The position numbers were made by a program, and so were the translations under genes. DNA of 63,606 bases, filler included, from Phoronis australis (Eukaryota; Animalia; Phoronida): the NCBI GenBank assembly GCA_002633005.1. It is 6 parts of 6 records of this genome, joined end to end, with 100 filler letters (N's around TTAATTAATTAA, not from the genome) between each part and the next. Parts side by side here need not be neighbours in the genome. Positions count along the whole stretch, not along the records: positions 30,728 to 50,565 come from NMRA01000288.1; 5 more parts are not named here. The stretch is one strand, 5' to 3'. Under the pieces are notes generated by a model. The model ran no database searches, had not been told where the DNA came from, and saw only the letters and a list, made by a program, of their open reading frames with translations. Position 1 is the stretch's first letter; every line of letters starts with the position of its first letter. Shown here in pieces: positions 30,684 through 56,900 of this stretch.

Positions 30684-32696
30684 NNNNNNNNNNNNNNNNN
30701 NNNNNNNNNNNNNNNNNNNNNNNNNNNGGGGGTGTGGTGAATAATCTGTCTTTGATTGTATTTACTGGTACCCTTATGTCACTATAATAAATAAATAAAT
30801 AATATTGGGGCATGGGCGGTTATTTAGGCGAATACAGTATTTCAAGTGAATATTGGAACTTGTCTAAATCATCAATTTTCTTATGCGTTTACTCCAGTTT
30901 AGTGTTGCAAATATTTTCAGTCTAATACATGTATGTCTTCAGTACATGTGCTTGTAATCAAGATGCCCTTGACTTGATTAATGGCATAGTGTACATTTGC
31001 ACTCTGTACATTAGCAACATGGGTTTGTCTTTTTGGTTTGGTTTGGTGACTTTTGATTCCTTTTGCGATGTGTTTGGCTGAAAATACCCACTTGACAACA
31101 ATTACGGGTCAAACAATACCACCAAGTTTTAATGCTTTATTTCTTACAAGAAGGACCACCCATAATTTGGGTTTTCTTCTGAAGACCACCACCCATGAAT
31201 TTTTATTTCAACTGCCGTCCTCCCCTCCCATACGGATTTCGCTGGAACAGCCCTAAGAATAACTAGATGACATTGTAAACTATAACTTTCTTGCAAATAC
31301 TTTCGAAATTGAAAAAGTCCAATGCATTTAGTTTAAATCTGTAGCAACTTCTTTGCATAATTTTAAAGCTGCCTAAAGTTTGTAACATTTTATCGTTTTA
31401 AGGTTCTTAGGTGTGAGATACATTTTTTCTTCTGCAAGTTTAGAAAGCAAAAATATGACCTAAGGTTATTTTTATTGGCTGAAAAATTGTAATTTCATGG
31501 GTGTAATAGACGTACAAATTTGCTGTACATCTGTCATGCAATTTCTGACTTAATGAATAATCCGTGGGATCTAAAATTTTGGTCAATAGTATTGAGTAAT
31601 AAGTTAAAAGATAATATGAAATTATTTTACTTTAGATTGAAAAATTTTAACGTAACTAAACTTTTTAACACTTTCTTGTGACGAATGTACAGCATCACGA
31701 TTTCCAGTTGACCTTTGACCCCAAGTGATCAATGATGTTAAAGTTGAAATGTTACTGAAGTTTGGGGTTTATTTGGTTGCACAAATTTGATAGTATAGTG
31801 AAATACCAATGATTAGCTTTCTTATGGCAATAATTAGCAACATACATGAAAAACAAATTAATTTTTAGGGTCAAGTGACCCCAAAAATGGGTCCATTTAG
31901 GTAAAAAATTGAAACTCATAGGACAATCAAATATGGGTCCTGAAACTAGTGAGAATGGACTTTCAGAGGAGACCAGAAATGTTAGTTTAGCTACAATTTT
32001 ACTTTTTTGTCTTGAGCTTAACCTTTTCACAGAATTTCCCTTTGATAAACTGGACAAATATCCATTATTGCGTGATCTGAAATTCTTTGCCTTCCCCCAC
32101 CAATGAGAGACACGAAAATGAGCCTGATTTCCAAAACAAGGTCATGGGCTTTCTTATCTCTGGGAAAAAGTAGAGTTCTATGGCCGTGTAATCTGGGCCA
32201 GCCCTATTGTCCAACTCCAATCCAGGGATATACGTAGCCACTCGCCCAGTCGCCAATGCGAGTAAAAATGGTGCTGGGCAAGTAGAAGTTGACTTGCCGG
32301 TCGACCAGGTGGCGGGCAAATTTTCATAGCACAAAAGCACTATATCATTTCCGAGAGGAACATGAATAAATTTTCTCCTCTTTGTGCTGTTTTTGTCACG
32401 AATTTAAGGTTCAATTTGGTCAGCGTGTCGACGTTAAGGCAGTAAAAAACATCGGCGAAGTGCAATCCTACCGATTCAATAGATGTCACACGTTATGCGA
32501 TTTGTCTGGACAAAATTTCAAAGTGTGTGGTCGTGCACAAAGGAAGTTGTGGACTAGTCCGAAACGAAGAAAAGGGGGGAAAGCCGGAAGACCGGTCCAT
32601 ATGCTCACAACAAGTGAAATGCCTTATTTCTTGGAACTGATTTCATATTGGTACAATATGTACAATGTCATTTTAGCCAAAATTATTTTGTAAATA

Positions 32697-33755
32697 ATTA
32701 CATTCGTGCTAATAAGCCCCCATGCCCCTATAAGTGCCCCCCCACTCGTTTTCAGACTTTGTTAAAATAAGCACCCAGTCCATGAACGTGTACAGTTCTA
32801 AAGTTCTACAGTAATGTCTTCAATTTATCAATAATATACGACAGTCCTGAAAAATCATGGTGGGCAGAATCACAAGCCTCACCAGTCGGTATTTAGCCAT
32901 GGCTGTACACTACAAACTTGCGCAGTGCTTCAAAAAGAACGCAAAAGTTTTGCTAATCTTGCGAGGAACGTGTCCCACCATGGTCAGGCCTTTCAGAACA
33001 GACGCAGCGTACTTGTCAATGGGATTGTATTGTATCTTTCCCGTACAGATCTTCTCCCTCAACAGGAATCCAGATTTCTTTGTGCAATATAAAAACCACG
33101 AATCGAAACTTGACCAGTGTTAATGAGCACGTGGCCACGAAGCGCGTGCTAGGGCCTTCTTGTATCTGGGCCTGCTACGCTGGCAAATGAACTCTGATGA
33201 CATGCAAGCGCTCGCTCACTCGGCGTACACCTGCAGACTAACTTCAAAACAAACGTGACGTGACAACAACATGTGTGTTTGTACAGACTTTTCTTGTGTT
33301 GCAGGGTGCGATCTAGCGCAGATTTGGACTTAATCTGCAGTTAATCCAGCGTACACATCATGAACTTAAAAATCTTAGGGACGCTATTTGGAAAACTTAA
33401 GGAAGATTTCAGTTAATTTGTTGAGTCGAAACTGTATTTCTACTCAAGAATTCTCAAGTTGCCCCATTGATGATTGCGAGGCAGCAACGCCTCAGTCAGC
33501 AAGTTTTCGCCCAGGGATTTCAGCACATTTTTTAAAAAAAAGATCGTAATTTAACAACAAAGTTTGATAGCAATCCACCACAGTTTTGTAGAAAGTCTGT
33601 CATAGGTTACAGATACGTCACAGCACATAAATTTGATGAATCATAGCTTCCGATTTCACCCGTTTCGGTTTTCAACCACCTTAGGCTACAAGCGCCCTCC
33701 CCTCCGTAACGAATTTTTCTATGCACCCTGGGCGCTTATTAGGGCAAATACGGTA
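32697..33755. mobile_element. Tc1/mariner(pogo)-like non-autonomous element
   Basis: Right TIR GGGCGCTTATTAGGGCAAATACGGTA; degenerate left TIR ...ATTCGTGCTAATAAGCCCCC; a similar right end at about 30815-30839. Confidence 0.5.
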
Positions 33756-35019
33756 GCCCTAATAGATGGTGACATAAACGCACAAAACGATGATTTTTGT
33801 TGACACTGGCAGCAGATTTGTAGTGACAGAGGCAAACGGCCGGGCGACTGGACTTCGGGCTGGGCGCAGGGCTTCATCCAGGATTTCAAACATAGGGTGT
33901 CCAAAATGGGTTCCCAATATTCCAGGGCGTCCATGATTCCGACGACGCATTACCCCCCCCTCCCCACCACCATTCACCAGTAACCCCCCCAAACACACAG
34001 TGAGTTTTTTTNNNNNNNNNNNNNNNNNNNNNNNNNNNNNNNNNNNNNNNNNNNNNNNNNNNNNNNNNNNNNNNNNNNNNNNNNNNNNNNNNNNTGGTCA
34101 TCTCAAGTCAAATTCTGTTATAAAGTTTATTATATCAACTTCACTAGCTTTATATTCTGTACAATGAGTCATCAAAGCTGCAGTTACCAACAAAAGAAAA
34201 ATGCACAGATGATGTGTGGTTTATATTTTGGCAACAGGTGTCACTGCTGCTCCATTTTAGACGCACATACAAAAGCATGAAACGGGCGAAAACTCAAACA
34301 TTTTAAATGGGGATATTCTTGCGGCACATCATATTATTAAAATAATGACATTTATTTTGCTTTTGGTGTTTTCAAAAAAAGATGAAGTAGATGAAACTAC
34401 AGCTCTGAAACACCAGTTTGGAGTTGAGCAAGGTCCGTGTCCCTATATAAAGTACAGAATTGCAGTGGCACATGAGTCTACTGAAAGCAGACACTCTGGC
34501 AACCAAACACGTGCTAATGATTGACAGGTCTACCAAATACTTTGAAAATAGTTTGAACATTGCAACATTTGAAATACATTGTATATTTCTTTCTGAGTTG
34601 AAAGGGCCAACTTCTCTCTTTGATTAACTGGTAGTCTTAGTAATCTTACAATATGGGTGTCCAAACTGGAGAAATTCTGATTGACAGGGCGTCCAAATGA
34701 TACATTGGGCGTCCTTGCCAGAGTGTCCACATTAGTGCTAGGGCGTCCATTTGGACGCCCAGGACGTACGCTGCATGAAGGCCTGGCTGGGCGAGTAGAT
34801 TTTCTGGCTCACTTGCCCAGCTGGGAAGCAGGGTTTTGAAACCTGGGTATATCACGATTTTGGTAGCGTTCGATTCCGCCTATCATTCTCATTAAAAAAA
34901 TATGAATTTGTGACCTACCGCGTTACTTCACCATTTTATCGCCAAATTTCTGTTCGCACTTTATATTTCCCAGTTGACATCGCCATGTTCACTCAACTCA
35001 AAATTACAGCGACACCTTG

Positions 35020-35532
35020 GACAGTGATTACATATAGGAGCTCCGTATGGCGGAAGATTTTCGGCGAATTATGCCTCATACTGACTATAAAACATCAAAG
35101 TCACGTTGTTATAAATACCTTTTGCGCAGAGAGGGACACCTTAGGAGGCTGTCGATGTATTTAATTCCTTTCAATTCAAAGAAATACTCTCGCTATCAAA
35201 CTTTTTCTTCGATCAGTTAAAAAAATTGGTAACTCGCCATTTTTAACGCTCTGGCATGCGTTGCAGTGTAAAAATGGTGAGTTACCGATTTTGGGAACTG
35301 AACGAGGGACTACTCAAAAAAAATTTGATAACGAGAGTATTCTTTCGAGTTGGAAGGAATTATAAATACATCGATGGCCTTGTCGTATGCGCAAAAGTGT
35401 TTATAACAATGTGATGTTTTTTAGTCAGTAAGTCAGTGTGATACATAATTCGCCAAAAAGCTTGCAGCGTATGAAGCTCCCATGGGAGCTCCACCATCTC
35501 TACTAGTCCAGTTAGTGACGGTGATCACTGTC
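35020..35532. mobile_element. Foldback/palindromic MITE (about 510-bp imperfect hairpin)
   Basis: Arms pair around about 35260 (GGTAACTCGCCATTTTTA / TAAAAATGGTGAGTTACC; AATACTCTCG.TATCAAA / TTTGATAACGAGAGTATT); a related half copy lies at 29668-29885. Confidence 0.7.
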
Positions 35533-35609
35533 TACGACACCTGCAGAAGGCGAAGAACCCAAGACCAAGTCAAAGACTGAAAAGTGAAAGAGCCAACCAA
35601 CTAACCTGG

Positions 35610-36252
35610 TAGCCAGACAGCTAGCTGTATGAAGACTGTCATCAAAATACAGCTAGGTACCACTGTGTGCATTTCTTCCGTAGACCCCGAAATTGCAGGG
35701 TAGTTCTGCTCATCACCACGCCGTGAAACTTGTATCAAAATGTCAATCTAAAGACCAGACGGGGTGCATGCAAAATTGGGAATCAACCGATACTCACCTT
35801 GCCCGTTACAGCCGTTTAAGTGAAAAGCAGTGCAATAAACGTTATTTTCTTGCATAATTCTCCGCCTTTTGTAACAATGAAAAGTATGTCATCGTTTCGA
35901 AAACAATACGCTCGTGTCACGGGCACATGCCATTTCCTAAATTTTCGCGACAACTTCGGTGAAGCAAAATTTGTTCTGAAATTCGTTTTATCGGTGTCAG
36001 AATTCTAAAAAACTATAATGAAGTGAAACCATTTCCAATAATTTGTTGTGACATTTACGCAAGCTCGTGAAAGAACAACAGTTGATTGAAGAATTCGCAA
36101 AAAAGAAACTGGCCAATAGGTGACACAATATTTCATGGGCCATGGCGCCGAAAGCCGTCGCTAAAGATCGCTCCACAACTTTAGCAACAGAATAACGGTA
36201 GAACGCCATTTTTTCCAACACAGTTAAATAATTTAGTTTACTCAAGGAAGAC
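35610..36252. repeat. Third copy of repeat family at 21163-21940
   Basis: Same motif series, more diverged. Confidence 0.7.
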
Positions 36253-39200
36253 TGTAGTTTTTAATGACACTAATTTTGTGTCAGATTTTATCTTACCACT
36301 TTTTACCTACATCGGTGCATATATACAGCTTTGTATCAAGGCTACTAACCTGGATGCCATTTCAATGCCAGTTTTTTGTAAGCTTTCTTCAGTTCTTCGA
36401 TACTGGCATCNGTTTTCTCATTGGGTTCATTTTTGGACTCTTGCGAACGTTAGTTAGTTTGCGTTTGCGAGAAGACAACACGTGTTCTCTCGCGAACGTG
36501 ACCCCGTTCGCGAGAACAACGCCGGTCCTCTCGCGAACGTGAGTTCATTGGCGGACATCTTGGATCGAGGAAAAACGCTCGGGAGGCGAACATAATTTGT
36601 CGCGTATCTTCTCAAATGTTGTAGATTTCACGAAAAAGTGTGAGTAGAGTGGCGCGCGTGATCCATAAGAGTGGGTAATTGTATATTGCGACACTTCATT
36701 TTATTTTTTAAGTATTCCTGACAGAATTTGAAATGGGACCAACTTATCCGACTATTACCCTAACAGCTATAAAATAGATTGCGTCATCTATAGTAAAACA
36801 TTGTGGAAAGGGAGAGTGTAGAGTACCGTCGGTAATGCATACCGCGCTCATTTTCTAATTCAACAGCATTGTGAGTCACTGACTAGACTGAGTGGCAAGG
36901 CGAGTACAAACAAAGCCAAGAAAAGGGAGAGCTATATGATTGATGTGAAAGAGCTAGTAAGTTAACATTGCTGGTTGTATGCGTATTTAAACAGTTAACC
37001 GATATTAACCTGTTCCTTGAGTAAAAATGGTCTTGCAGTGGCGGATCTAGGATATCACAAGGGGGGGCCCAACATTTTGTTCGGCTGCAAGCATTTGCGT
37101 AAAGTCAACCACAATTGTAGATGCGCATAGCATCGAATGGGGGGAGGTTGGGAGGGAGGTTTACCCCCCTTAAAAGTACACAATTTCAACCAATCAGACA
37201 CGATCTGAAGGGCAAGGCCCATAACTCCTAGGTTCTGACCATGTTTGGCCATATCCAAAGGACCCAAAAATCATAGGAAAATTCCATACAGCTTGACCAC
37301 TAGAGGGCGCATTGATCTTATTTACATAGTCATGTCCAGGGCACTCCTGTTACACTATACTTCCTTGGCCAAAGAATATCTCATCGGGCTTGTTATTACT
37401 TGGTGAAATAAAGTTCCTCCAAGTATGTTGCTTTGCCATAAAATTTGTTTTTGTTTGTTGGTTTCTTTGTTTGCACGGTACAAATTGCAATTTTTTAGTC
37501 GGGTCAACCTGAAATTTACTCACAACCGTGATTTGTTAGTGAATGGCTCAGAAGCCTTCCGTTTTTAATTAAAAATCAGAAACGTACCTAAGTCATCATC
37601 ACTGTCCTGGATATCAAAGTTATAGAGCTGTGGATTTAATCCATTACTTGCTAAATGTGCTTCGTGTTGTGATAAATGCAGTTGTGCAGACATCGAAGTA
37701 AACGGTAGATGACATGTTGCCATCAAAGTAATCCCAAGGTAGCGCTGCACTCTAAGTTTTTTATATGTGACAATTTAGCAACATTTACACTGTGTTAATT
37801 GACATACAACTTGTTTTTAATTCGACTGGTGATTATTTGAGCAAAATATAATAACTATTAGCGAGACTACACTACCCTTTAATAATTGTTGATGATAACA
37901 GTGGGACCTGGCAAGAACTTCGATGGGACCAAAGTTGACTGTTCACTGCAGTACCGCAGCATCGACGCTCCGCTATTTAATCCACCTGTTTAGTGCCAAG
38001 TTGATTGGCGCTGTTAACTTTGACCCAGGACCGAAGTTAACCGTTCATAATGACCACAACTCAAAACATCGATGTGTCGACGTTAGTATGAAAGGCCCTC
38101 AAGACACTGCTGATGATCTGCTCTGTTAACATCACCTGTACCAATATGCCAGCATAAGGGCACCAATAACAACAATAATACTTCCAATAACAATGATGTC
38201 GCTACTAATAACAACAAATTTTGAGTTACATTGACAAAATTGTGAAAAGTAAAGGATCAATTTTGTTTCTATGTTTACGAAAACACCTCTCCAACACTGG
38301 TGTTGACCTTTATTGTGCATGAGCAGCATCGTGTGATAAAGTGACACTCTCGATGTCAGGTCACAATCAACTGGTTTAAAACAAACACATCAAAACTTCA
38401 AGCAAAAAAAGATGTCTATGCAACATTTTGTGTTGATTCATTGTGCTTATTCAGGAATCTTAAAGTGCATGGTCATTGAATGTGGTTGGTTTTGGGAAGA
38501 ATGTAGGGAAATTGGCAACTGCTGCACAAAATATTTGTTGGAAGAAATGGTACATATTGATAGCCTTTAACAACTTCACTGACATAAATTCACCTCCTAA
38601 AGCGACTGCCAACAGTGGCAATCCACTGACGATGATTGCCTCACTGTGGCTCATGACACCGACGATGCTGAAAACGGCTACCGGTATGTTGTTTTGGTCA
38701 TCGTTATCTGGATTGTCATCATCATCAAACATTCGTCATAAAATAGATAATGGAGAAAAACCAAGACTTGACTGTACAAATCAGTCGGCAAGAAAGTGAG
38801 GAAAGGTGAATCAATAAAATGGTTTTCAAAAAATCTCAACAGTTAGAGAATAGTTGGTCATAGGGAAAGAACTGACGGTGCATTTCTCGTAGCACTTGAC
38901 GAAAGATCCATCGATGGCTTTGTAAATCAAAATGTGAAAAAATGACATCGCACTACGGTGCCAAACATGATTTTATTTTAATGCAATACTATTATGTGTC
39001 ATCATGGCTTGATCTTGAACACTAGCTGACAGGACTTAACTACTTAGTGAAAATAACATGTGATGTGTGCAATGAGCAAAATCGTTATGGCTGCCGGGAT
39101 GAAATTCTTTTGATTGTTTCTGATTTGAAGTTTCTAAATTGAGATTTTAGTTTTTTATTTGTGTGTCGTTCATTCACAATGTTTGAGCTACATCCCAGGA

Positions 39201-39536
39201 AATTTACAATAATTTTCCATCATGAGAAAAATTGCCCAAAAATGTTGATTGTATCTCTTCTAGGTGAAATGTGAAGCCCCTGCCTAAAATGAGACCCCTA
39301 GCACTTGTAGAACAAAAATTACTGGACAGCTCAAATTTGAATTGGAGACAGAGTTTACCCAACTCACCCTGGTTTCAGCTTGAGAGTTTTTGTACTGTCA
39401 AACTGTTAGTTTGTCTCTATCCTAGAAATTACATTTCTAATTTGAGTAAAGAACAAGATGAGACGGTTGGTTTAAATCAAACTATTGTTTTTCTATTTCA
39501 GTTACGTAACCTTAAGCTGTTAATCACCTGACTAAA

Positions 39537-42500
39537 ATGGGATATTGTGGCTTGTGGGCATGTGAGTATGAAGTAAACGTAGAACTTCATCCAATGTGTC
39601 AATTTTGTGCTGCGTTTTGGTCCTGCGGCTACCAATTGTCTGTTACCAATGGTCTGCTACCAGCAGCCTGCTACCAGTAGCCTGCTACCAGTAGTCTGCT
39701 ACACCTAGGGTCTGTTTCATGAAAAGTGACTGGAAACTCAAGTCAGGAAATGAATTTTGTCTCGCAAAACTATTTCTGAACAATAATTAAATCTCACATT
39801 AGAAAACGCACAGTAGAATCTCATAAGTTTAGGACACCTCATGCCGGACAACTGACTTAAATAAGATAAGTAGCACCAAATCAATACTTCATCATTTAAA
39901 AGCTATCATTTGATAATGTTTCGAGAAATTTTGGGTGTTCACAGCAATGTTAGAATACATTGAAAAAGATCAATTTTAGCAAATATTTTTCAGACTTGGT
40001 GAGATTTCACCATATGATATCTGACATACTTGTAACCTCTACTTGCTGAGAAAACTTATTATTAAACTTTGTTTTGCTACAATTTACTATTTATTGACTA
40101 ACCGCGAACGTTATTTTATTCAGTAATTCATTGTTAACGTTGTATATGCATGCTCCTAACTATACTAACGTATAGGTTACTGTAGGAACTGAACGACAAT
40201 GCTATATGAACAACATCTATGCTAAATGAAGTGCAGTTGTATTCATTGACCACTTGCAAATGGGAGATCAAAAGATTCTGCAAGAAATAGGTTACCTTTG
40301 CACTCATGACATATACCTTGGGGGCTCACGTAACCCGCATCAAGCAGATTCCCAACACCAAGTCACGAAAATACATACTAGACACGGTTGACTAATTTAC
40401 AGTGGGTCATTTTTTACTCAAAATTCGTTCTTGAAAACATTTGGCAGTTTTCAACCTACTTTATGTTCACATCGTCGCTAGATGTTGTTTTTCTAACTAA
40501 TATGACCAAGTAATCACAAAGATAAGATTGAAATTAGAGCGTGAGACAACTTTCAGTCTTTAAGTCTTCCAAGTCACTTTTCGGGTAACCCCAAGGGCGC
40601 ATTCAACTATACTGAGAGAGTAGAATTCATTAGCTGTCTTACGGCAAGAGAAATCTAGCAAAAATCATGTGCTCTCATTGAAAATACACTGCAATATCTC
40701 TCGTCCCAAATTTGAGACATCGACTCAAGGGCTCTAATTGGATAGTCATACTTGCCAATTTAGTAGCCTATGCAAAACAAATTTCAATCTTATTACAGGC
40801 TTTTAAGGTTCGAGGATTGCTACCGATCAAGCTTTCTTTCTTTCGAGATTTACATGTCTAAATGTAATTGATATCTGTCAAATAAATTTGAGTAAAAACT
40901 GTTTTAATTTTAGCCATTCCAAATTTTCATAGGTTTTCGAAGACCCAAACGAAAAGTGGACATCAATATTGTGAGACTGTCATGTCGATGTGTTTCATAT
41001 CGAAAGGGAATAAATAGCAATAGGAAGGTAAGTACAGTATTGTTCTAGACGCTAATATATTTTTTTGCAAGATGGTTTCTAAACCTGCATTTCGTATCAC
41101 AAGAGACTTTCCAGACACTTGTAGCAATACACAAAATGTCCATCAGAACAATCATGGTGTTTGCAAATGTAATGTTCAGTATGCTACAGTGAAATATGCG
41201 TGCAGAATTGTTTTGAAATAATTATTTTACCCATCAGTTTACAGATGCACAGTAGCATGGAACTTTTTACACTTTAGTTTGCTCACTGTTTACCAGTACT
41301 GAAGCAGTAAAATCTCCCTATTTAGGACACCCTTATGGTGTACAGGCGAAATGTTATTTTTTCATTTTTTTCCTAAAAATGTGTAGCATCAAATTAATGC
41401 TTTGCTGTGTTCAAGTTCTGAAGCATAGCTATCATCAGAAAATATTTTATTATTTTTGTCCGAAGTTGGTTATATTTTAATGTCAATAAGTGGTGGCCTA
41501 CAGTAGTTGTATTTCAAATTGATAGAAGTGATATAGAAATAGCATAGTATTCGCTTTGTACACCAACTTATAAAAATGACAATAATTAGGAAGAAAATTT
41601 GGATTATTTCAAAATTTCCTGTAAGATACTTTGCTGTTGTTGTAAATGACAATATTAAATATTTATGGTTTTGTTTGAAAACTGAAATGTTGCATGAAAC
41701 AAAAACATCATGCAAATCTGTAATGTAGCATTTTTGAGATTTTATAGAATTTTTTCCTATTATGTTTTGATATCAATGCTTTGAGAGTATTCTGTTTTGC
41801 AAAATTCCACTGAAACAACGTTGTGATATGATCTGACCCAGGCAACGGCAGATAAACAAGAGGTGCAGGTGGCGTGATGCCTTTTGCGGTATATCAGGCG
41901 TGTTTAGGCCACAAGGCCGGGCCCATTACACAATGGCAGATAATATGTTAAGTGTCCAAAATTAAATTGAATTTCTACACTATTTTGAGAAGAAAATGTG
42001 AAATCTAGATATTTGGTAAAGTGCACAGACTTGGTTTTACTTCATTTCTTGTTAAATGAGTTGCTACAGGAAGATAGACTATAATTAAGGAAAGTTTTAA
42101 AGGTATGGTTGTTTTCCATGTGTTTGAAACTTAGGGAGTTCACCATAAGGAAATGAGGCCAATAGAATGTTGCATGTTCGTATTGACACCACTGGTTTGA
42201 TTAATGGGGGAATGTTTCTTTCAGGATGTGTCAGAAAATAGAGAAACTACTGTTGAGTTCATCAAGGACCAAAGTAAGTTTTGTTGTGAACGTAATATGA
42301 ACAACGAACCATGATTAGCGAAAAAATTGATATTTTTTGGCCTTGGTTATCAGCTATGAATCAAAAACCACAGTTGCTGCATTCAAAACTCTTTTTTCAG
42401 CACAGACATTAAAATAATATACAGGGATTCTTAACTTTAATTTAGCAAACAATATGGTCAACAATTGAAAGTTTGTGTCAAATTTCTTAACAAAAATAAA

Positions 42501-45500
42501 GATTAAGAAAATATTTGTTTGTTGCTATCATGGTTTCTAGTGTGTGGTAATTTTTCCATTATTTGCAGCATTGTGACCAATCAGCCTTTGAGAAATGGAA
42601 AATGACAATTGAACACTTAATTTATTTTTGTGCAAAGTTCTTAAGTGTTGAATTGCCGTACACGGTGCAGTCACATACTAAAAAGGCATTTCTACCGTAA
42701 TTCTCCTGCTTAGTGATGTTATAGCTTTATTTTTCCGTTTTGTAACATTAAATATACACTTTGATGCATAGGTTTGGTATTTGTTTTACTTTTTTGATCA
42801 AAACTGCAACAAACGAAATTGTGGTTCAAAAAAAAAAATAAAGTGGCACCAAAAATGTTGTGATCAGTTTCAGCCCTGCTGTTTATACGCGTTTCAGTTG
42901 ACCACTGTCCTTTTTGCAGCAAAATAAAAGATAGACCCCATTATGCAATAGGGTACAATTTAATTTCTCCTCCCATTACTTGGCCTGTATTTCCTCCTCC
43001 AGACTGTAGACATTTAACTTACACCGCTGAAGATAAGTGTACCACATGGACCATTTGGTTTTAAGTGTAGGCCTACTGTTTTAGTTGGCTCTTTTATCCA
43101 CTTTCGTCTCACTACTTAAAATTGTGAGCATTTGAAAAACGGCAGATAACGACACGAGCCTTTATCTTGCTCCAAAATTTGTTTACCGTTCTCAGGGATA
43201 TTGTGCTTTTGCAGGTGGTGAAACAGTCAGATTTGAACAAGTGGTTGAATCAGAATATCGCAACATCAGGAACACAGAAAATTTGATGCGTGTCACCTCT
43301 GAAGTAGATGTCCTTGAAGGTGACCAGGATCATATTATGCAGTGGTCGAAGAACAGAATCCTCATGAAGACGTTGGAAGAGACAGATGGCCTTCGCAATG
43401 GTAAGTAGATTTTTACCTTTAGATGTTTAAAATTTAACTTTGAGACATTCTGTAGTTATTCTGTCATACAGTCTCTACACGAATGATGTTTTCAGATAAT
43501 TTTTGGCTCACCATGTATGCTTACTTTCCTTTTTTAATAGACTTGTTTGTTCTGGAAGTGTATCGTGGCTGGGACGTAACTGATGGCGATAACAAATATT
43601 TCTGTGCAATCCGTGTGTACAAAGCAAACAAAATGAAGAGACATCAGTATCTGATGTGTACTCAAGAGAAAAAAGTGGCTTTAAAAGTAAGTAAAGATCG
43701 CACGATAATACTACACCCCTTCTTATCAGCCAAACTATAAAACTTTAAAATGTGATGGTGAAAATTTCCAGATGTGTAGGATTTTCGAGTCCGTTTTTGG
43801 GGTCTGCCTATCTCTGCACGAAACTGCTTCAAGTGGATCATTGGGATAATTTCCAGATGTGTTCCTGCCAAGAAGGCTACTCAGGTGATGTTGATTTTCA
43901 GATGAAGCCCACTACTGTGTGACGCACCCTGGCAGCAATGTTATCCAATGAATGAACAGATCACGACTGCCTCTATATCTTTGGATTTTCATGAAATTCT
44001 CCAAATAGTTTTTTTTAAGAAAATGATGACATCTTCCTGTTTTTGTACAGGTTTGACATATTCTGCTCAATCTGGTGGCCATTTTTATGACTATTAAATT
44101 CCCCTAGAAGTCTGTGGTTCGCGGTGCAGTCGGGAGTGCATTTCAATTTTTCATTTATTTTCTTTCAAATCTGTTTTTGATTTGAATTTAAGCACAATAC
44201 AATTTAAAGTATCACTAAGATTGTTAACAATGAACTGTTTTCTTAAAATCAAAAACTGAACGATCGCGGCACAAATAAAAAAGTTCATGTTCAATTCTGC
44301 AACGTTTCGTATTTTCATTAGACATCATCAGAATCATATTTACAACAATTTAGGACCACAAGTGCCAACATACAGCTCACCAGCTATAGTGATGACCAGC
44401 TTTTTAACTGACCATATTCTATGTATCTCTCACTTCACTCTATGGATGTTTCCTGAGCTGTATGTTGGCTCTTGTTGTCCTAAATTGTTGTAAATATGAT
44501 CTTGATGATGTCTAATGAAAAGACGAAACGTTGAGTTGAACATGAACTTTTTTATTTGTGCGGCGATCGTCGGGTTTTTGATCTGATTGTGGCCAAAAAC
44601 TGATTTGTTTTCTTAAAAAGTTTAATTCTGTCAGGCACAAAGTGAAATAAGTACTCACATTTTTAATGTGAAATGTAAAAATACTGTTGGAAGGATTAAT
44701 ATGCAAGTGGCTGTCGTCAGAAAAAGGCATTCATTTGATTTAGACAAATAATGTGATTTTGGTGTACTGATCAAAAAGGAAGTTTCAAATTGGATCCTCT
44801 CACAGTTTGAATATTTTATACAGTGTGTCTTTGCTATAGAAATATTCCAAGCTTCAATTATTTTCGTAAACCAACAGCGAGAGAATTTTACATCGAAGAA
44901 TACATTTTATTAAAAAGTGTAAGTTGGACGAATACCATGTATTCTGGAGCAACTCGTTAAAAAACCTTTGACATACAACTCCCAATATGGATTGAGCACA
45001 TGTTTGTCTGTATCATTTTTGTCTTATAAATAAAATAAAATTACTGGTATTTGAAAAGAAAGTTCTTTCCTCTTGTGATACTAGTTTATTGAAGATTTCT
45101 CTTGGTTATTTCAGAAAACTGTGTTCAAGTTAAATAGTGCGGACTTAAATAATCCAGATCCCACACTGTTTCTGCTGAAAGAATGGTCTGGCATCTCTTT
45201 TTTTGAGTCGGCAAAGCACCCTGGTGAGTAGTGAGCAATGATAGTAAAAAATTCTTCAGTTTGGAAAAAATCGCAAAAATTGACATATTTCTATTTTCAG
45301 AAGCTTAGCACACATTGTTGCAAATGCTCATTAAAATTTTACCACAGTCATGCTGTTTCGTGATAGATATGTTGTACAAACTATGCTAAAACCAAAGCAA
45401 GCTGCCGCGAAAAGTTACTTTTGTTGAAGAATTTGATAAAATGAAGTGTCACCTTTTCATCATATTGTGTTCCATACTGAAGAATTTTTCCTGTAATATT

Positions 45501-46554
45501 GTACGACAGGACAAGAGTGTTATTTTATGATTTTCCATCGATATTGCTCAAACTCTCTGAATATTCATGTACCTCTTGTCACTGAATCACTCTGACGAAA
45601 TAGAGTTCTGAATCCAAGAGACATGATAACGATGATGATGATATTAAATGTAGATAAAACATAAATCCAGATGAGTAATTTTGAATATACTGATAGGAAT
45701 TTTGTAGTTGCCTATATTTTCACAATCTCCTGATTTCAAGTGAAATGCGTTGTAATCCTGTTTATTTTCCCTAGTGCCACCTGTATAGGATGTTATGGAC
45801 AAGACTGTACGTTTTGCCCCATATGTACAAAACTAGTCTAAACTCAGCAAATCTGCCATCAATTAGATCTCATGAGGATGCTTTTTTGATAAAATTTTGT
45901 AAAAAAATAAGATACATTCATCAGTAGCAAAACAGAATCAATAACATGAGTCAATTTTATATGCTATAAATGTTCAATATGAAATCTCAAAAACTGATGC
46001 AGTTTCCTGAATTATCGTTTACATTTTGTTTTCTGCAACTTAAAATGTTTTCATAAAAATTTTACAAGTCCTATTTTTTGATAGCCAGCCACTCGACTCA
46101 TGCAAAAATGGAACATTTTGACAGCAATTCCCAACAGATTTTGGAGAACAATGTGTAAAGCATAGTACCTGAAAGTTCTGTGTGAATGTTACTGGTCATT
46201 TTTGAGATCTGATGTTGCTAAGGTGGCCAAAATTGGAATTTTTCTACATTCTAACCTTAAATGGGCAAGCATCCTTTTTCCTCTTCCAGTGTTGTCACCT
46301 GGTGCCAGCCGGAATGGGTTGGTATTCAGGTGCCGGCTTTGAAGCACCGGTCTCAGAATGAGTCCGGTGCAGTCCTGAACCAAAGCCTCATCTAGTATAC
46401 GTCTTCTCTGGGTATCTTTGCAGGTTTCTATCTCGCCCATGATAAAGAAGGCTCCGTATATTTAAAGAAGGTCGGTACTGAGTCAACGCCGTTCTCTGTA
46501 TTGGAAGACATTCCTGAGATACAGTTTAATGTGCAGAAGCAAACTCAGCTCTAA
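39537..46554 (+). CDS. IL-1/IL-18 family-like beta-trefoil cytokine precursor, 246 aa, 7 coding exons
   Basis: Exons 39537-39561, 40933-41027, 42225-42273, 43215-43400, 43541-43686, 45115-45223, 46424-46554 (741 nt). All introns are GT-AG with GTAAGT/GTGAGT donors and compatible phases 1,0,1,1,0,1. Kozak-like AAAATGG with an upstream in-frame TAA. Protein: MGYCGLWACFRRPKRKVDINIVRLSCRCVSYRKGINSNRKDVSENRETTVEFIKDQSGETVRFEQVVESEYRNIRNTENLMRVTSEVDVLEGDQDHIMQWSKNRILMKTLEETDGLRNDLFVLEVYRGWDVTDGDNKYFCAIRVYKANKMKRHQYLMCTQEKKVALKKTVFKLNSADLNNPDPTLFLLKEWSGISFFESAKHPGFYLAHDKEGSVYLKKVGTESTPFSVLEDIPEIQFNVQKQTQL. Confidence 0.8.
39628..39702 (+). repeat. 14-bp tandem repeat (CTACCAGTAGCCTG)
   Basis: About 5 degenerate units in the first coding intron. 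Confidence 0.7.
44249..44581. mobile_element. Inverted-repeat Penelope-terminus-like element with hammerhead-like cores
   Basis: About 80-bp inverted arms, each reading (C/T)TGATGATGTCTAATGAAA...CGAAACGTTG. Confidence 0.5.
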
Positions 46555-47647
46555 CAGTTCGCCTTTCTAAACATGTTCAATGTTTTTAAAAGTCATCACC
46601 AGTTTTACTTGGACACAACATACTAAGGTTTTAACTGCACTAAAAGCTGCCAAGGGTTTCTGTCCATAAACCCATTCCTCACTCAAACTGGTTGGAAGCT
46701 ATGGAGAGTAGACGTGCCAGTTAGGAATTCGCCATAGTGTTGTTCGCCTGAATGTTGCCTTATTTTAAATGAGACAAGTGTTTCATCAGTGTACTGAGTG
46801 CACTAATGAAGACCAAGTCTTAGATAAAACTTGCAAATGTTCACAATTCGTGTGGTAAAGAAGTTGCGTTTTAAGTTCATGCACATGTACTTTGTCATTT
46901 GTAAGTACGTCATTCATCTATTGTGTAAAGTTAGCTCCATTAGTAGTATTGTATAGTACATGGACCACCAACTCTGTATACATTCAATGGACGAAATCTG
47001 TGCTCTTTCATTAGCAAGGACGTCATATTCACTAGCGACACCTGACCAAATTATCTGGTATCATTTCTGGCAGGTATGTCGTCTGCTAATAATGGTTGGC
47101 TTTGTTTTGTCAAAATACACTAACCGTAAACTGGGACAGATAATTTAGGAGAGTGGCGCCTCCTCTAGGATATTACGCAAGAAAATGTCGGTGTTGCGAA
47201 TCTGTTATCTATAATAGTGCCATAAATATAATCTCTTTATTATCAATGTTATAGTTATGATATAAATATTATGTTATGTTTTCTAAGTTTAGGTAAATGT
47301 TGAGTTATTTTTTCCGTCCACGCAGTTTCATTGTCTGAATCAACATTTTTTTTGTTTTGACAATTAGCTGTTGTTACTGGGAAAATGATGTTTTGTCTAG
47401 TCACTTTTGTTTTGAACGGTATGGAGTTGGCTCAATGATTATGAGGAGGATGGATCCCTTACAAATTTTCGAGTCCAGACTGTGGCCTGTTCTATCTTGC
47501 CTTTCTGAGGGATTCTTTTTGTGAGGGATTACCATAAGTATTAATATATTTTTGTGCATGTTGTTTTCATTAGTTTGTTGTCAGTATTGCATCTTCCTAA
47601 ACGGTGCATAATATTCCTGTTATTAAGATCTTATTTTAGTAAATTAT

Positions 47648-47653
47648 AATAAA
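47648..47653 (+). terminator. Candidate polyadenylation signal of the IL-1-like gene
   Basis: AATAAA about 1.1 kb after the stop, following an AT-rich tract; no transcript evidence. Confidence 0.3.
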
Positions 47654-50361
47654 TCTGAAAAAAGAATGTTGTTATAGTTTATTTACAAGAAACCAAGCAT
47701 TCTTGACTGTATTAGTAAGAGGGAATGTGGGGCGTCCGTAATTTGGAGTTGTGGCACAAACAACAGTCAAGTTTTTTCCATTTTGGATTTTGTACCTTGT
47801 TCAGTCCAGGGTGATGCTTAGGGCAGATACAATGTTGTCAACTAAAAAATTGCCAAACAAGATTTCATTATACTCCATATTTAGTTTCAAAATGTAATCA
47901 GGGGAACAAAACGAATTTCTAGATTTTATTAATTTGAACTCCCGGTAACCAACCCACGAATTCTTTGTGCTGGATACTTCGTCATAATTAGTCTCCTGCA
48001 CAAAAAATGAAAAATCGTGTACTCCACGAAACTTCAGATATCCCATAATATGGAATTTTAGTCGAGGTTCAGTTTATATTAAAGTTAAGTGAAAAAGTAG
48101 CCCAGTTGGCAAATATCCTAGGAAGGATAAAAATAAATGTCATTTTAAAGTACAATTGGTCTGTGGCTAATTTCCAAGTTTTTCTCGGTAACTGGAACTC
48201 GAGAAAATGTAAAGGCAGTATTGTATGAACAGTTATCCCCTGTGCTCCATATCGTGGCGGGATACGGCCTTCGCTCGACTATTAAGCGCCTGGTCTTGAA
48301 AAAGCGCTGGTCTGAAATTAAACAGTTGTATCCAAAATTAACGCCGTTGTCGTAGGAGTCCTTCCTGAATGTGTATGAGGGGCAATATTCGAGCACGTAT
48401 ACGGATGCTTCATCTGCATGAGGCGCCAGCGGTTCTTAAACGAGACAAATTTACAGCCAGTACAATATAAAACGCCATAATTTACGTGCTGAGACATTGA
48501 ATTATTTCTTTTCCCAACCGTCAAGAAGCTGAAAAACCCACTCCGAGACCGTACAAAATCACCCCCTACGATACCTCTGAGAGCAATTACGTACCACCCT
48601 AGTGGACAACACATAACGGCGGACAAAATACCCACTCAAATTGGTGGCACATCCCTGTACCCTTCCATCGCTGAAAAAGTGATTTGGAATAACTGATTTA
48701 TCGTTTCTTTGGAATGCAGGGTTAATCTTCTGTGATCGCTTTTTAGGTAGACGAAACGAAATCGTTTTAAGAATTCCATTTAAATATGGTAAATATCAAA
48801 AAGCGGTATGACTTGAAGGGAGGTCCTATCATATTTTTTATTCGGTGACGACGACTTTGAGGAAAGCTATGGGCGTGTTTGGAAAAAGGCTGGTCAGTTG
48901 TAACAACATGTATTACTATAGTAGGACCGTCCAACCCCAGCCATATTCACTAATGGGTTTTCTGGGTAAATGAATGTACAAAATTGAAAAACCAAACCCG
49001 TTCATCGTTAGGATTTAAACGCTGTAACTGGATCTGGTCTTAGTTTTGGGAGAATTGACCATTTCCCCTCATACCCTTTGCATTCCTCTTCTAAAAATGG
49101 CTTGGAACGCCAATAAATTGGATTATTCAAAGTGATTCTGTGCCACTATTTCGCCTTCCATGCCTCTTCAGATCGAAGCCACCTGATGCCGGCTGAAATG
49201 AGTCTACTTAGCTCGAATAATACTGTTATCAAGGACCAATTCGATATGTTCTCTAGATCACTTCTTTTCGATAGCACCGCAAACGGTGTGATTCTATGGG
49301 ACTGTTTTATTATCATAATGACGCAGAGTGCGTTAAACCCATTCGAATTGAGAAGGTGACGTCAAATTTATGAAAATTAGCCAAGGAATTCCTAAGATAT
49401 AGAATGAAACGTAAAAAACAATTAACTCTGGGAAGCACAGCTAGAGTGAGTCCGATTGGTCTAAAGCTCGTTATCTGTTTCCATCTCTATACAAGCTCAT
49501 TTGCCAAATTTCGCAAAGATCCTTCAAAGGGATAAGGAGATACAGGCGTAAATGTAAAAAATCAAAATTGCCAGAATAGCCAAAACACACCCGAAAATCA
49601 ACATCAGACACGGAACACAATTTTCATAATCGCTCTTTGAGTAGTTTGTCAGATAAAGAGGCATGCGTCAAAAACATACTCTAAAATTTTAAGTGGTCAT
49701 CGGGTGGCGCAGAAAACATAAAATCTGTTCGAAAATGGAAATAGAATTCCATGGAAATACATTCATGAACTCCGAAGAGGAAAACGTAAAAAAAAACAGT
49801 TTGCTACAAGACGTGTCGGACTTTAATGAGACAATCTAATAGAAACATTAAGTTTAAAAGAAATAATATTTAATGAAGTTTCAACATTCAAAGAGAAACG
49901 AACATTTTTACACACAATAAGTTTCGTCACTGCATGGGTAGACCACTCTCCACATGGCACCCAACTAATATTATCGAGTCAGTTCATTTTATATCACAGT
50001 CTTTTGTGGTCAGCCTCCGACCCCGAATGTCCCAAGACTTTTGTAGACACAAACGTTCCACTTTCTGTGAAAAGCTTCAGACACGTCTCCACTATGTCAC
50101 GGCTGCATGGCTCTCGACTGCCGCACAGGTCGAACATTTGAATGCGCCCGGCCAACACAGCAGTTCATTTGCATATAAATGTCCCGGCAACAATCGTTGA
50201 ACACTGACGCCGGCGACGTAACAGATTGTTCCCAATTATCAATTCTTTACATAATCCTCCACTGAAATGTGAACATACAGGGCAAAACACTGCCTGGCAA
50301 TCTGCCCAAACGAATCAAGACTGTAAAATTCAAATTCACCCCGACCAACAAGCGATCGAGA

Positions 50362-50711: not shown

Positions 50712-51775
50712 TCTCTGCGATTGAGCAATGCAGCTCTGCTCCAGACGACCACTGGCCAGATAGTCAATCTCATGTCCAATGATGTCAACAGGTTTGACCA
50801 GGTGAGACCGCCATCCTACTTGACTGAACATACTGTGCTCATAAATGCAACTCACGTGTATGTAAAACAGGTCTGGTGCATAACCTACACATGGGGACTT
50901 ACTGTCTGTGAGTCTCATTAGTTTTGGATGAGATCAGCGTCAATCACCATGAGGTATACTGTATCTGTTGGATATCCTCACAACATTGATCATTTCGTAT
51001 GTCTACAAGTAGATAATCATTTTTATGTGCCCCCATACATGTGTCATCTTTACGTGCCATTGGCGCGTATTGCTGTCATCTTAATCTATACATACTGGAG
51101 TTTGAGGCTTGGTGTCCACAGCTGCATTTTGTATACTCTCTGCAAGATCTTCATGAAATTATGCATTTTGAAATGTTTAATTTCATGAAGATCCTGCACA
51201 AATTTTTTGTTGATGGTCGTGAAGATGTGAGATGACCATTTTGAGGCAATTTCATTTGTATTTTGTTGAGTTTGGTTTGTAATAAACTCCCCAGTCCATT
51301 TGTGTGTCCCCATGATCTTAGGCAGGTAAGTGTGTTTATGTTGGGGAGGGGATGTCACTCACCTATTTTGGACACCCGTTACAGTTGCTGCAACACATTA
51401 ATTTTGGATTCGTACCCCTCGGAGCATCTTTGTGAAATATGTTTGACAAGTTTCTATATACAAGGGACATGGTGACATAATGTTTTGGATAAATCCTACT
51501 ACTATTGTCAATTATGCACAAGTGTGTCTCAGCATGAATGGTAGTGTTGTTGCAATCCTGAGAATGTTGTGTTTGAGGTGGTAGCTGACTGATGTCTTCT
51601 TTATCTTGTAGGCGGTCATCTTTCTCCACTTCCTTTGGGTGGGCCCCCTGCAGACCATTGCTGTGATGGTCATCTTGTGGCACGAGGTTGGACCAGCCAG
51701 TTTGGCTGGATTAGCTGTACTAGTCCTTCTTATACCACTCCAGGCATGGATGGGCAAGCGCTTTTCAAAACTCAG
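50712..51775 (+). CDS. ABCC4: ABC transporter C family (MRP4-like), two internal TMD1 exons
   Basis: Exons 50712-50801 ([30 protein letters not shown]) and 51612-51775 ([18 protein letters not shown]...[14 protein letters not shown]) with AG/GT boundaries; closely match ABCC4 as recalled. Confidence 0.88.
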
Positions 51776-53966: not shown

Positions 53967-56900
53967 TCACATATCTAACCATTCTTTCATGTAGACACAG
54001 CTTGCAGGGGAAATAACTCCACCTTCATGGCACTCGCTGAAAACCTGTTGAAAAAATATAGACATGTTAAAGCAACCTATTCTTTTGATCAAAGTTCAAA
54101 GGTCACATACATCACAATGCCACAGACTGACAATCTGTCAATTGATGTGAATTCAGTGAAATACTAATAAAGCATTAAATAATATATACATATGCACACT
54201 GCAGTGGGCATTACAAACAACACTCATTTAGTAAATATAGAGAGTGATTTTTGTTCTACTAATATCAATTTGGTGTACACTTACCCACCATCATTTGTCC
54301 GGCATAATACACACACACACTGATACAGAGGCAGCTTATCTACTACACTTCAAAGAGCTACTTATGAAGTTGTTACTAATTCCATAATTCTTCAGCTCAA
54401 CACGAAAGGAATTTTGATCATTTTTCGTGATATTGTGTCCTGTAGATGCTGGTGGTACTAGTACTTATCTGAAGACAAAGTGAAAAGGTACCATGGAATG
54501 GGATGAGTTCTAAGAGACAAATTTCGCGTTTTCGACAATCTATAGGGTACTCTGTGAGGTATTATTAATTATAAAGGATTTTTTTTAAATGTATAACTGT
54601 AAGGGTACAGTTTTCCTAAAATCCTACATTACTGTTTCTGATCACAGCTCATGAACAAAGATGAAAAATGAATTCCTTCAATAATCTATTTGGAAAAGGT
54701 AATAACACTGTACACTTTTAACCTGTAATTTCAACTTAGCAGTGACTCACTGGACATACACCACAAGGTGTTCTCATTAATCCAGTAGATGGCGCCAGAG
54801 GTCTAATAGCTCGATAAAGTTTCGTCTGCTCTCCACTGTCACCTGCTCCTCCTAATAATGTTCGCTCAACTTTTCCATCATAAATCAATGTGTCCAGTAT
54901 AGTCTCAATGTCTTCCACAGATAATTGNACCATCAAACATTTATGGCCCAATGAAACAACAACGACCTGTAAATTTTTATTTTTTTGAAGTACGACCACC
55001 ACCCATTTTGAATTTAAATCAAACGCAACCACCCATAAATTTTTATTTCAGTTGCCTTCCCCCCTCCCACACAGATTTTGCTGGAACAGCCCTGAGGTAT
55101 TATTAATTATAAAGGATTTTTTTAAATGTAAGGGTAGTTTTCCTAAAATGATACATTACCATTTCTGATCACAGCTTATGAATAAAGATGAAAAATGAAT
55201 TCCTTCAATAGCTTGGAAAAGGTAATAACACTGTACACTTTTAACCCCTAATTTCAACTTAGCAGTAACTCACTGGACATACACCACAAGGTGTTCTCAT
55301 TAATCCAGTAGATGGCGCCAGAGGTCTAATAGCTCGATAAAGTTTCGTCTGCTCTCCACTGTCACCTGCTCCTCCTAATAATGTTCGCTCAACTTTTCCA
55401 TCATAAATCAATGTGTCCAGTATAGTCTCAATGTCTTCAACAGATAATTGCACCTTTGAAGAAAAACATTCAGAATCATGACTCACTACAACATAACACA
55501 ATAGAGTATAAACAAGGCCATCATTTTACTATTATACAAGACTGAGAAATAAAATGTTTTACTTTTTCCTAACCTAGAGGATTTGTCCTCATACCAGGGC
55601 CCTCGAATGGTTGAGGGGAAAGCTGGAGTGTGCATTCTGAGAAGAGATTTTTTGGGGTGAGTGGAAAATTTTACCCCAACTACCATCAATAGCACCCGGG
55701 CCCCTGTTGCATGCCATCAATTAGCCAAAATTGACTTTTTGTGCTCATTCAAATCATGATTAACACCTGTCTGAGATACAAGTGAGCCAAGCCTCCAGGG
55801 GAATTTTTCAGTCACTCGACGGGAATTTTTGGCCTCATGAAGGGAATTTCGCATGATTTTTCAATAACTTTCAGAGGAGAATAGGGCCAATGGTCGGCCT
55901 CGAAATCGAGGGACTGAGGGAACTGCATACATATGCGTGTGTTTACATACTTTCCGCATTGACACTAACATAGTTACCTTACTAATTCCCAGCTCAGATA
56001 TAAACTTCCATACTTCCTTCGAAGAGGCAAATGAGGCATTTCTCACAGATAATGGATCTGACTGGGTATTTCTAGCAGACGTAGTCTGAAACAACAAAAC
56101 AGTAATACACTGAGTTTGAAATTCTGAATCCATGGCTAAACATGGAAATATGCAAATGACCCAGTATGTTACTAAACATAAATTTGATTCCAAAATCCAT
56201 TTTGAGGAGGTGAGCTTGAAAGAACAGTCCCAAATCTTCTTGGGGCAATAAATTATTTTGTACTTAAGAAGCTGAAGATCGGAATTTCACTAATAACAAA
56301 ATATGAGCACTGCCCCAGAAATCGCTTTCACATTTTATCCAGGTTTTCAATCATTCCCTTGCATACATTCACTAGTAAGACTGAGCTCAGGAGAGTAGGA
56401 GGGACCATTGTGCAATGCTTGATTGTCAGAAATTAAAGCCCGGACTCGAGCCCAGGTGTCCCCAAACAGGAGACCAGAGCTTGAACATCTGAGCCACATA
56501 CATAAAAGTGCCAATTATACTTAAAAAGTATGAAGAACTTACGAATTAATCAAAAGAATGGAGGTTACTATAAACTGACCAAAATGAGGAGGTTAAAGCT
56601 AGGTAAATTTGATATTCTTCTCAGTTACTTTGAGAATATCTTAGAATATAATAGAGATATGTGCAAAACTGAAATACTTGAAGTATCATATTCTCGCGAA
56701 GAAACCACAGATACCATTGAAATTGTGGCTAAGTTTGGGTACTTAAAATCCAGTAAATCAGATCATTCTATGCGTCTCTTAAAAATTACCTCCAAAGAAT
56801 GCATTTGATAAAAACTAAAAGAGAATTCCTCCAATGCAAAATGTTAGTTTTCAACATATTGGTGGAGATTTTTAAGTTAGGTTCCAACCTTTTGCTCTAG

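What the first reader, a model, noticed from the sequence alone, without database searches (positions are those of the whole stretch)
39537..46554. Cryptic IL-1/IL-18-family cytokine gene in an apparently invertebrate genome
Seen: seven short exons join in frame into a 246-aa protein with no signal peptide; the ORF track picks up only one of them, inside an unspliced ORF. Its C-terminal about 180 aa follow IL-18/IL-1 motif by motif (human sequences recalled): YRNIRN vs LSVIRN; FVLEVYR vs FIISMYK; YLMC vs YLSC/TLSC; KKVALK vs KIISFK; DPTLFLLKE vs DIIFFQR; FESAKHPGFYLA vs FESSSYEGYFLA/FESAQFPNWYIS; VYLKK vs LILKK; IQFNVQ vs IMFTVQ. It fits the IL-1 signature F-x-S-A-x2-P-x2-Y-L-A-T-x7-L except for H at the T position. 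Established: IL-1 ligands were long treated as vertebrate-specific and diverge too fast for BLAST. Inference: this is an ancestral-type IL-1 cytokine. Structure-based reports of invertebrate IL-1-like proteins exist, so novelty for this lineage must be checked.
Basis: partly seen in the sequence, partly recalled or inferred. Interest (0 to 1): 0.92.

Follow-up and report, generated by a model that had tools for sequence, protein, structure and literature searches.

The report
PDZ-less interleukin-1-like gene in invertebrate
This is a real, spliced and expressed invertebrate gene that likely encodes an interleukin-1-type immune alarm protein; such invertebrate relatives were published in 2025-2026, so it adds a member, with an untested hint that its cysteine-rich, basic front end could tether it to membranes or send it to the nucleus.

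Summary
The gene model is right. Seven coding exons (39537-46554, +) join by GT..AG introns into 246 aa, and all six coding joints appear in stranded RNA reads of three runs. The IL-1 PROSITE signature matches with one mismatch (2 of 20,000 shuffles do as well). Introns 3-5 have phases 1,1,0, as published for IL-1beta genes. By eye the C-terminal half resembles the brachiopod IL-1anc LanaIL-1.2. The fold of the whole protein was not tested, and no database relative was found. POLR3F points to a lophotrochozoan host, not a vertebrate. The surprise is already in print: the IL-1anc family (PMC13736523) spans cnidarians to fish. This protein's motifs are absent from that paper's supplements, and it lacks the usual PDZ domain. 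The scan noted similar genes in other genomes. One open lead: the leader has Gly2, Cys4, Cys9 and a basic run. By eye, 7 of 71 published invertebrate members also start Met-Gly with an early Cys, and the paper's main text does not mention lipidation. Verdict: new member of a known family.

The parts
36760..36956 (+). Non-coding leader exon holding 3 upstream ATGs. Its true 5' end is not mapped: the X1 contig runs on for 148 nt that were not listed as laid on the stretch.
   Evidence: joint 36956>39502 GT..AG in X1, X2, X4; uORFs
39502..39561 (+). Exon with 35 nt of 5' UTR (stops in all three frames), start ATG at 39537 with A at -3 and G at +4, and residues 1-8 (Gly2, Cys4)
40933..41027 (+). 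Coding exon 2, residues 9-40: Cys9, basic run Arg11-Lys16, Cys26, Cys28. Residues 1-40 hold 11 Lys/Arg against 1 Asp/Glu.
42225..42273 (+). Coding exon 3, residues 41-56: acidic linker with Asp41 and Asp55, candidate protease sites (inferred)
43215..43400 (+). Coding exon 4, residues 57-118: inferred trefoil strands 1-3
   Evidence: strand assignment is inference
43541..43686 (+). Coding exon 5, residues 119-167: inferred strands 4-7, flanked by a phase-1 and a phase-0 intron
   Evidence: modelled alone it is all beta, pLDDT 78
45115..45223 (+). Coding exon 6, residues 168-203: inferred strands 8-9 with PDP-x-LF and FES-x3-PG
46424..46554 (+). Coding exon 7, residues 204-246 and stop: rest of the IL-1 signature, inferred strands 10-12
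   Evidence: modelled alone it starts with two short strands, pLDDT 67
46555..47653 (+). 3' UTR of about 1.1 kb ending at AATAAA 47648; one AUUUA against 4.2 expected from shuffles
   Evidence: RNA depth; motifs

Best explanation
This expressed seven-exon gene likely encodes a PDZ-less member of the invertebrate IL-1anc family: a leaderless pro-cytokine with a basic 40-residue leader, an acidic linker and a predicted IL-1-type beta-trefoil of about 185 residues. It would work like an IL-1alpha-type alarmin. The protein is likely made in the cytosol and held inside the cell by its basic leader, most likely in the nucleus. It would be released when the cell is damaged or dies lytically, perhaps after a protease cuts the linker near Asp41 or Asp55, and the freed trefoil would signal through an Ig-TIR receptor. 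Shown: gene structure, splicing, expression, signature, intron phases, no PDZ on the observed transcript, no hydrophobic signal. Inferred: fold, location in the cell, cleavage, release, receptor and immune role.
For: All six coding joints are in stranded RNA. The PROSITE IL-1 signature, as printed in PMC4880838, matches with one mismatch 50 residues from the C-terminus; 2 of 20,000 shuffles do as well. The FES-PG motif named in PMC12108812 and the (F/L)ES motif of PMC13736523 are present. Introns 3, 4 and 5 have phases 1, 1, 0, the pattern given for the last three introns of IL-1beta genes; four exons cover the trefoil, within the three to five reported for IL-1anc. By eye against Table S2, the stretch from PDP-x-LF through ES, Pro, Tyr, Ala and EG-x-V-x-LK shares about 15 of some 42 positions with brachiopod LanaIL-1.2. 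Pfam gave nothing for 5 of 5 exon peptides at E up to 10, which fits the paper's statement that HMMER fails on invertebrate IL-1. The paper predicts nuclear signals in many invertebrate IL-1anc leaders and shows two urchin proteins in the nucleus. Host: POLR3F is 73-78% identical to most named lophotrochozoans and 72-73% to three cartilaginous fish, whose clade (support 99-100) excludes it.
Against: The whole protein was not folded or profile-searched. No relative was found: word searches with exons 4 and 5 were empty, and the two hits of the 1.84-billion search are repeat proteins. The only trefoil hit of any search was FGF7 for exon 7, at a non-significant E of 1.6. By recall, FGF genes share the central phase-1 and phase-0 introns, so those two alone do not separate IL-1 from FGF. 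The signature's Thr is His, and an extra phase-1 intron splits the signature. The basic run fits a class 4 nuclear signal as I recall it, but not as printed in PMC2878527, nor the K-K/R-x-K/R pattern. No kappaB-consensus site lies in 33000-48000 and the 3' UTR is not rich in AUUUA. Induction was not testable. Only 1 of 8 IL-1anc proteins tested in the paper was cut by a caspase. None of the published neighbour genes (GCC2, ESD, EIF2A, TRAF3, IL-1R) was recognised in the window, though they were not searched for systematically.
Confidence: 0.62

Rival explanations
1. Same IL-1anc family, but the leader is a lipid anchor. Cys4 and Cys9 next to the basic run would be S-acylated and park the precursor on the inner face of a membrane until the linker is cut, or acylation would switch it between membrane and nucleus.
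For: Gly2, Cys4, Cys9 and the Arg11-Lys16 run. By eye, 7 of 71 invertebrate Table S2 rows start Met-Gly with a Cys in the first ten residues (4 starfish, 3 amphioxus). Three sea anemone rows carry K-W-x-C-[FL]-G near the start, and Nematostella shares W-A-C-F with this protein. Precedents for acylation deciding between membrane and nucleus: R7BP (PMC2171691, abstract) and Plasmodium calpain (PMC2746569, abstract).
Against: Tyr3 and Leu6 break the recalled PROSITE myristoylation pattern. No acylation predictor was run and the count has no background control. None of the eight IL-1anc proteins localised in the paper was reported at the plasma membrane, but none of them starts Met-Gly. No orthologue was found to test conservation.
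Confidence: 0.2
2. A divergent beta-trefoil of another family, such as an intracellular FGF-like protein, with a chance IL-1-like motif.
For: Best PDB hit of exon 7 is FGF7, E 1.6. Basic leaders without a signal peptide occur in FGFs, and FGF genes share the central intron phases (both recalled). PMC5861070 warns that the trefoil fold alone does not show kinship (passages).
Against: The recalled FGF signature and its Cys-x-Phe-x-Glu core are absent, and so is ricin QxW. No Pfam family matched any of 5 exon peptides, whereas FGF exons are usually recognisable (own knowledge). The central exon is 146 nt against about 104 nt in FGF genes (recalled). The IL-1 signature is a 1 in 10,000 event under shuffling.
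Confidence: 0.1
3. An IL-1-fold protein with no cytokine role: a constitutive intracellular protein or a receptor antagonist.
For: It is expressed in all three RNA runs, whose treatment is not given. No kappaB site or AU-rich cluster. No ligand-receptor binding has been shown for any IL-1anc.
Against: IL-1anc genes rise on challenge in lamprey, urchin and anemone. Ig-TIR receptors are widespread in invertebrates.
Confidence: 0.08

Closest known systems
IL-1anc family (Fontenla-Iglesias et al., Nat Ecol Evol 2026, PMC13736523; preprint PMC12338702); by eye nearest to brachiopod LanaIL-1.2 in the C-terminal half
   Same: Leaderless; C-terminal FES-bearing domain; conserved central intron phases; no Pfam IL1 hit; basic N-terminal run.
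   Different: No PDZ domain, whereas all 9 lophotrochozoan rows of Table S2 are marked PDZ-positive. Four probe motifs are absent from the 7 supplements (cells over 400 characters are cut). Flanked by POLR3F and CLEC16A, not by the published neighbours. Host species not identified.
PDZ-less IL-1anc proteins (AjapIL-1.1, PclaIL-1.2 and 1.3, PvanIL-1.2, SparIL-1.2, SpurIL-1.3)
   Same: Trefoil with a short or unstructured leader and no PDZ.
   Different: By eye none of them has a Gly2/Cys/basic leader; SparIL-1.2 has a signal peptide.
Vertebrate IL-1beta, IL-18 and IL-1alpha
   Same: PROSITE signature (8 of 9 fixed positions), 1,1,0 intron phases, pro-region plus trefoil layout; a basic nuclear-signal-like run recalls IL-1alpha.
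   Different: Pro-region is only about 56 aa; His replaces the signature Thr; one extra intron inside the signature; no sequence-level hit to any PDB IL-1 chain from 4 exon searches.
FGF family
   Same: Weak exon 7 likeness to FGF7 (E 1.6); similar central intron phases (recalled).
   Different: No FGF signature or core Cys; longer central exon; FES-x3-PG present.

Membership tests
IL-1 superfamily | 12-strand beta-trefoil fold in IL-1 strand order | not testable with these tools
Exon 5 alone models as all beta with no significant PDB match; exon 7 alone gives two short strands.
IL-1 superfamily | PROSITE signature / FES-PG motif near the C-terminus | tested here: met
   One mismatch (Thr to His) at 197-217; 2 of 20,000 shuffles as good; FES-x3-PG present. 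The strict pattern is not matched.
IL-1 superfamily | Conserved intron phases in the trefoil exons | tested here: met
   Introns 3-5 are phases 1, 1, 0 as for IL-1beta, plus one extra phase-1 intron. The IL-1anc phase figure itself could not be seen.
IL-1 superfamily | No signal peptide (agonists) | tested here: met
   Best 19-residue hydropathy window 0.38; hydropathy only.
IL-1 superfamily | Pfam IL1 (PF00340) or PDB sequence match | tested here: inconclusive
   No hit for single exons. Fragments have little power, and published invertebrate members also escape HMMER.
IL-1 superfamily | Signals through an Ig-TIR receptor; induced by infection | not testable with these tools
   No genome held; treatment of the RNA runs not given.
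IL-1anc, canonical form | N-terminal PDZ domain | tested here: not met
   Only 56 residues precede exon 4. Stops in all three frames at 39502-39536 block any N-terminal extension through that exon. No other GT..AG joint into the gene was listed for 30728-42300 (6 rows not shown). The paper counts PDZ-less members in the family.
IL-1anc, canonical form | Linkage to GCC2, ESD, EIF2A, TRAF3 or IL-1R | tested here: inconclusive
   Recognised neighbours are POLR3F, CLEC16A, ABC-transporter fragments and LTR elements. No systematic search, and the assembly looks mosaic.
FGF | FGF signature with core Cys-x-Phe-x-Glu | tested here: not met
   Recalled patterns find nothing; no Pfam FGF hit.

The most novel reading that the evidence does not exclude
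A branch of ancestral IL-1 cytokines is lipid-anchored. Cysteines beside a basic run at the N-terminus, seen here and by eye in starfish, amphioxus and sea anemone members, are S-acylated and hold the pro-cytokine on the membrane, or toggle it between membrane and nucleus, until a protease frees the trefoil. In this gene that leader would replace the lost PDZ domain. It would offer a testable answer to how leaderless ancestral IL-1 reaches the cell surface, which the founding paper calls elusive.
Probability: 0.2. Interest if true: 0.7.

Novelty: new member of a known kind. Interest (0 to 1): 0.36.

Why it matters
It extends the recently described IL-1anc family to a lophotrochozoan that seems to lie outside the sampled molluscs and is neither Lingula nor Capitella, and it shows another loss of the PDZ domain. 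The paper's first screen used PDZ as bait, so PDZ-less genes like this one are easy to miss. The claim that IL-1 predates vertebrates is no longer new. The part worth a bench test is the leader: if it is acylated, it points to an unrecognised way of parking or exporting these cytokines.

Tried and rejected
Homologue word searches with exon 4 (50 candidates, none at E up to 10) and exon 5 (no candidate). HMMER over 1.84 billion representatives with exon 5: 2 hits, both repeat proteins (a tandem-repeat ORF and a protein with long C-terminal repeats), rejected. Pfam on 5 exon peptides and 3 longer frames: nothing. PDB sequence search on 4 exons: TIE2 kinase (E 0.19 and worse), none, FGF7 and a ubiquitin carrier (E 1.6), none. 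ESM Atlas on exons 4 and 5: no usable hit. Foldseek with the exon 5 model: no match at E 0.001, generic beta sheets only. No RNA holder was listed by the index itself; the RNA runs came by species label and were laid. No earlier notes on this genome or sequence. Species not identified: both POLR3F trees leave the window in no strongly supported group, and the careful tree did not finish. A PDZ-bearing isoform was looked for in RNA joints and not seen. N-myristoylation judged doubtful. My first by-eye placement of CLEC16A at 16800-19000 was wrong: that region holds an integrase remnant, and CLEC16A is at 62111-62425. No complex prediction was run, as no receptor was in hand.

Full report
Gene structure. 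Reading 38500-47500 and testing splice sites gave seven coding exons: 39537-39561, 40933-41027, 42225-42273, 43215-43400, 43541-43686, 45115-45223 and 46424-46554. All six introns are GT..AG, with phases 1, 0, 1, 1, 0, 1, and the frame reads 246 residues and a stop.

Expression. No whole genome is held. The run search listed one contig set holding 7% of the words and three raw RNA runs with the same species label. Laying all four on 36000-48000 showed every coding joint in each RNA run, always with the first mate on the minus strand, as expected for a plus-strand transcript in a stranded library. Counts in X2/X3/X4, allele rows added, were 11/3/13, 6/12/40, 6/2/10, 12/17/28, 5/11/11 and 14/6/42, from about a fifth of each run. 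The reads differ from the window at a number of places, most visibly at the end of exon 4 and the start of exon 6, so they come from other individuals or alleles. Of the 7 listed differences inside coding exons, 5 are synonymous, but only 40 of 492 rows were shown. A non-coding exon at 36760-36956 joins 39502, and depth continues to about 47630. The 35 bases before the ATG have stops in all three frames, so this transcript cannot carry a longer N-terminus. A second lay on 30728-42300 listed no other GT..AG joint into the gene (6 rows not shown).

What the protein is. The IL-1 signature as printed in PMC4880838 (passages) matches residues 197-217 at 8 of 9 fixed positions. In 20,000 shuffles none matched fully and 2 matched with at most one miss. 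In the unspliced six frames of the window, none of 40,432 stop-free 21-mers came closer than two misses. The same paper gives phases 1, 1, 0 for the last three IL-1beta introns, and introns 3-5 here have these phases. By my recall, FGF genes share the central 1 and 0, so this supports a trefoil of the IL-1/FGF kind more than IL-1 alone. Recalled FGF and ricin patterns are absent. The best hydrophobic 19-mer scores 0.38, so no signal peptide is apparent.

What could not be shown. The fold of the whole protein is untested. Searches with single exons found no relative in Pfam, the PDB, the 5.8-billion set, the 1.84-billion representatives (two repeat proteins) or the ESM Atlas. The only trefoil that appeared was FGF7 for exon 7 at E 1.6. 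Exon 5 alone models as three beta strands at pLDDT 78 with no significant structural match, and exon 7 gives two short strands. These fragments have little power either way.

Host. The neighbouring POLR3F is 73-78% identical to most named molluscs, nemerteans, annelids and Lingula, and 72-73% to three cartilaginous fish. In a 24-row tree it falls in a 13-row lophotrochozoan set with weak support (81), outside the mollusc (95), nemertean (95) and cartilaginous-fish (100) clades (I kept 23 named rows of 62). In the 53-row tree its set also held chelicerates. A jawed-vertebrate host is unlikely. A brachiopod, phoronid or annelid is the best guess, and it is not resolved.

What is known. PMC13736523 (abstract, two Results sections and three subsections, first part of the Discussion, Bioinformatics methods, first part of the Extended Data legends, Table S1 and Table S2 up to the bowfin row) defines IL-1anc: an IL-1 trefoil with an (F/L)ES motif, mostly behind a PDZ domain, from cnidarians to fish. 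It reports PDZ-less members, conserved central intron phases, induction on challenge in three species, nuclear location for two urchin proteins and caspase cleavage of one of eight. Receptor binding is not shown. A search for the term found only this paper and its preprint (preprint seen as a listing only). Four probe motifs of this protein and the names POLR3F and CLEC16A are absent from its seven supplements (cells over 400 characters are cut, and figures are not held). By eye the C-terminal half shares about 15 of some 42 positions with brachiopod LanaIL-1.2, and exon 5 recalls scallop PmaxIL-1.1. All 9 lophotrochozoan rows there are marked as having a PDZ domain; this gene has none. The scan's own notes list four similar genes in other genomes, one of them a PDZ-less abalone gene; I did not check them.

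Likely mechanism. Residues 1-40 hold 11 Lys/Arg and 1 Asp/Glu, residues 41-70 hold 9 Asp/Glu, and the inferred trefoil follows. I read this as an IL-1alpha-like alarmin: made without a signal peptide, kept in the cell by the basic leader, released by damage or lytic death, possibly trimmed at Asp41 or Asp55, and acting on an Ig-TIR receptor. All of these steps are inferred from the family. Against a classical inducible cytokine, there is no kappaB-consensus site in 33000-48000 and the 3' UTR has one AUUUA against 4.2 expected. The basic run fits a class 4 nuclear signal as I recall it, but not as printed in PMC2878527 (passage; test).

The open lead. The leader also has Gly2, Cys4 and Cys9. 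Counting by eye in Table S2, 13 of 71 invertebrate rows start Met-Gly and 7 of these have a Cys in the first ten residues (4 starfish, 3 amphioxus). Three sea anemone rows have K-W-x-C-[FL]-G near the start. The paper's main text has no hit for myristoyl, palmitoyl or lipidat, its first supplement none for myrist, and two library searches listed no paper that, by title or abstract start, treats acylation of invertebrate IL-1 (listings only). Acylation next to a basic signal controls membrane versus nuclear location in R7BP and Plasmodium calpain (abstracts). For this protein myristoylation is doubtful, because Tyr3 and Leu6 break the recalled pattern, so S-acylation is the candidate. The count has no background control and no orthologue confirms conservation. 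I put this reading at 0.2.

Verdict. IL-1-superfamily membership is likely (about 0.8) but rests on motif, gene structure and by-eye likeness, not on a fold. It is a new, PDZ-less member of a family published in 2025-2026. Other papers consulted as passages: PMC7144542, PMC12108812, PMC9382457, PMC5861070.

Noticed in passing
window 36760-36956 and 39502-39536: Three upstream ORFs in the spliced leader. The 16-codon one crosses the exon joint and stops 5 nt before the main ATG, which could damp translation.
   Followed up: partly
window 36559-36640: Sharp end of stranded RNA molecules at 36559 in all three RNA runs (27-30 molecules each), on an element of about 80 nt that ends near a GTGAGT donor. 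Reads continue into differing sequences not found in the window, suggesting a repeated first exon or repeat-borne promoter. Not shown to join this gene.
   Followed up: partly
window 54748-54930 vs 55274-55453; 57625-57738 vs 58373-58540: Two POLR3F exons are present twice with near-identical flanks, likely both haplotypes assembled in tandem.
   Followed up: partly
window 50712-50801 and 51614-51775 (+): Two isolated exons of an ABCC-type transporter between N gaps (Pfam ABC_membrane E 0.005 for the first, none for the second), with no rest of the gene seen; local gene order may be unreliable.
   Followed up: partly
window 1260-5010 and 5228-10553 (+): Two LTR retrotransposon remnants with frame breaks, one Gypsy-like and one BEL/Pao-like by eye (Pfam RT, RNase H, protease, integrase, DUF5641).
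   Followed up: partly
window 17251-17385 (-) and 62111-62425 (-): Integrase-core remnant (rva_4) and a CLEC16A exon (CLEC16A_C, E 4e-22), the latter upstream of POLR3F on the same strand.
   Followed up: yes
window 43386-43400 and 45115-45150: RNA alleles differ strongly from the window in these two short coding stretches, which lie in inferred loops after strands 3 and 7; possibly fast-evolving surfaces (table 5c).
   Followed up: no
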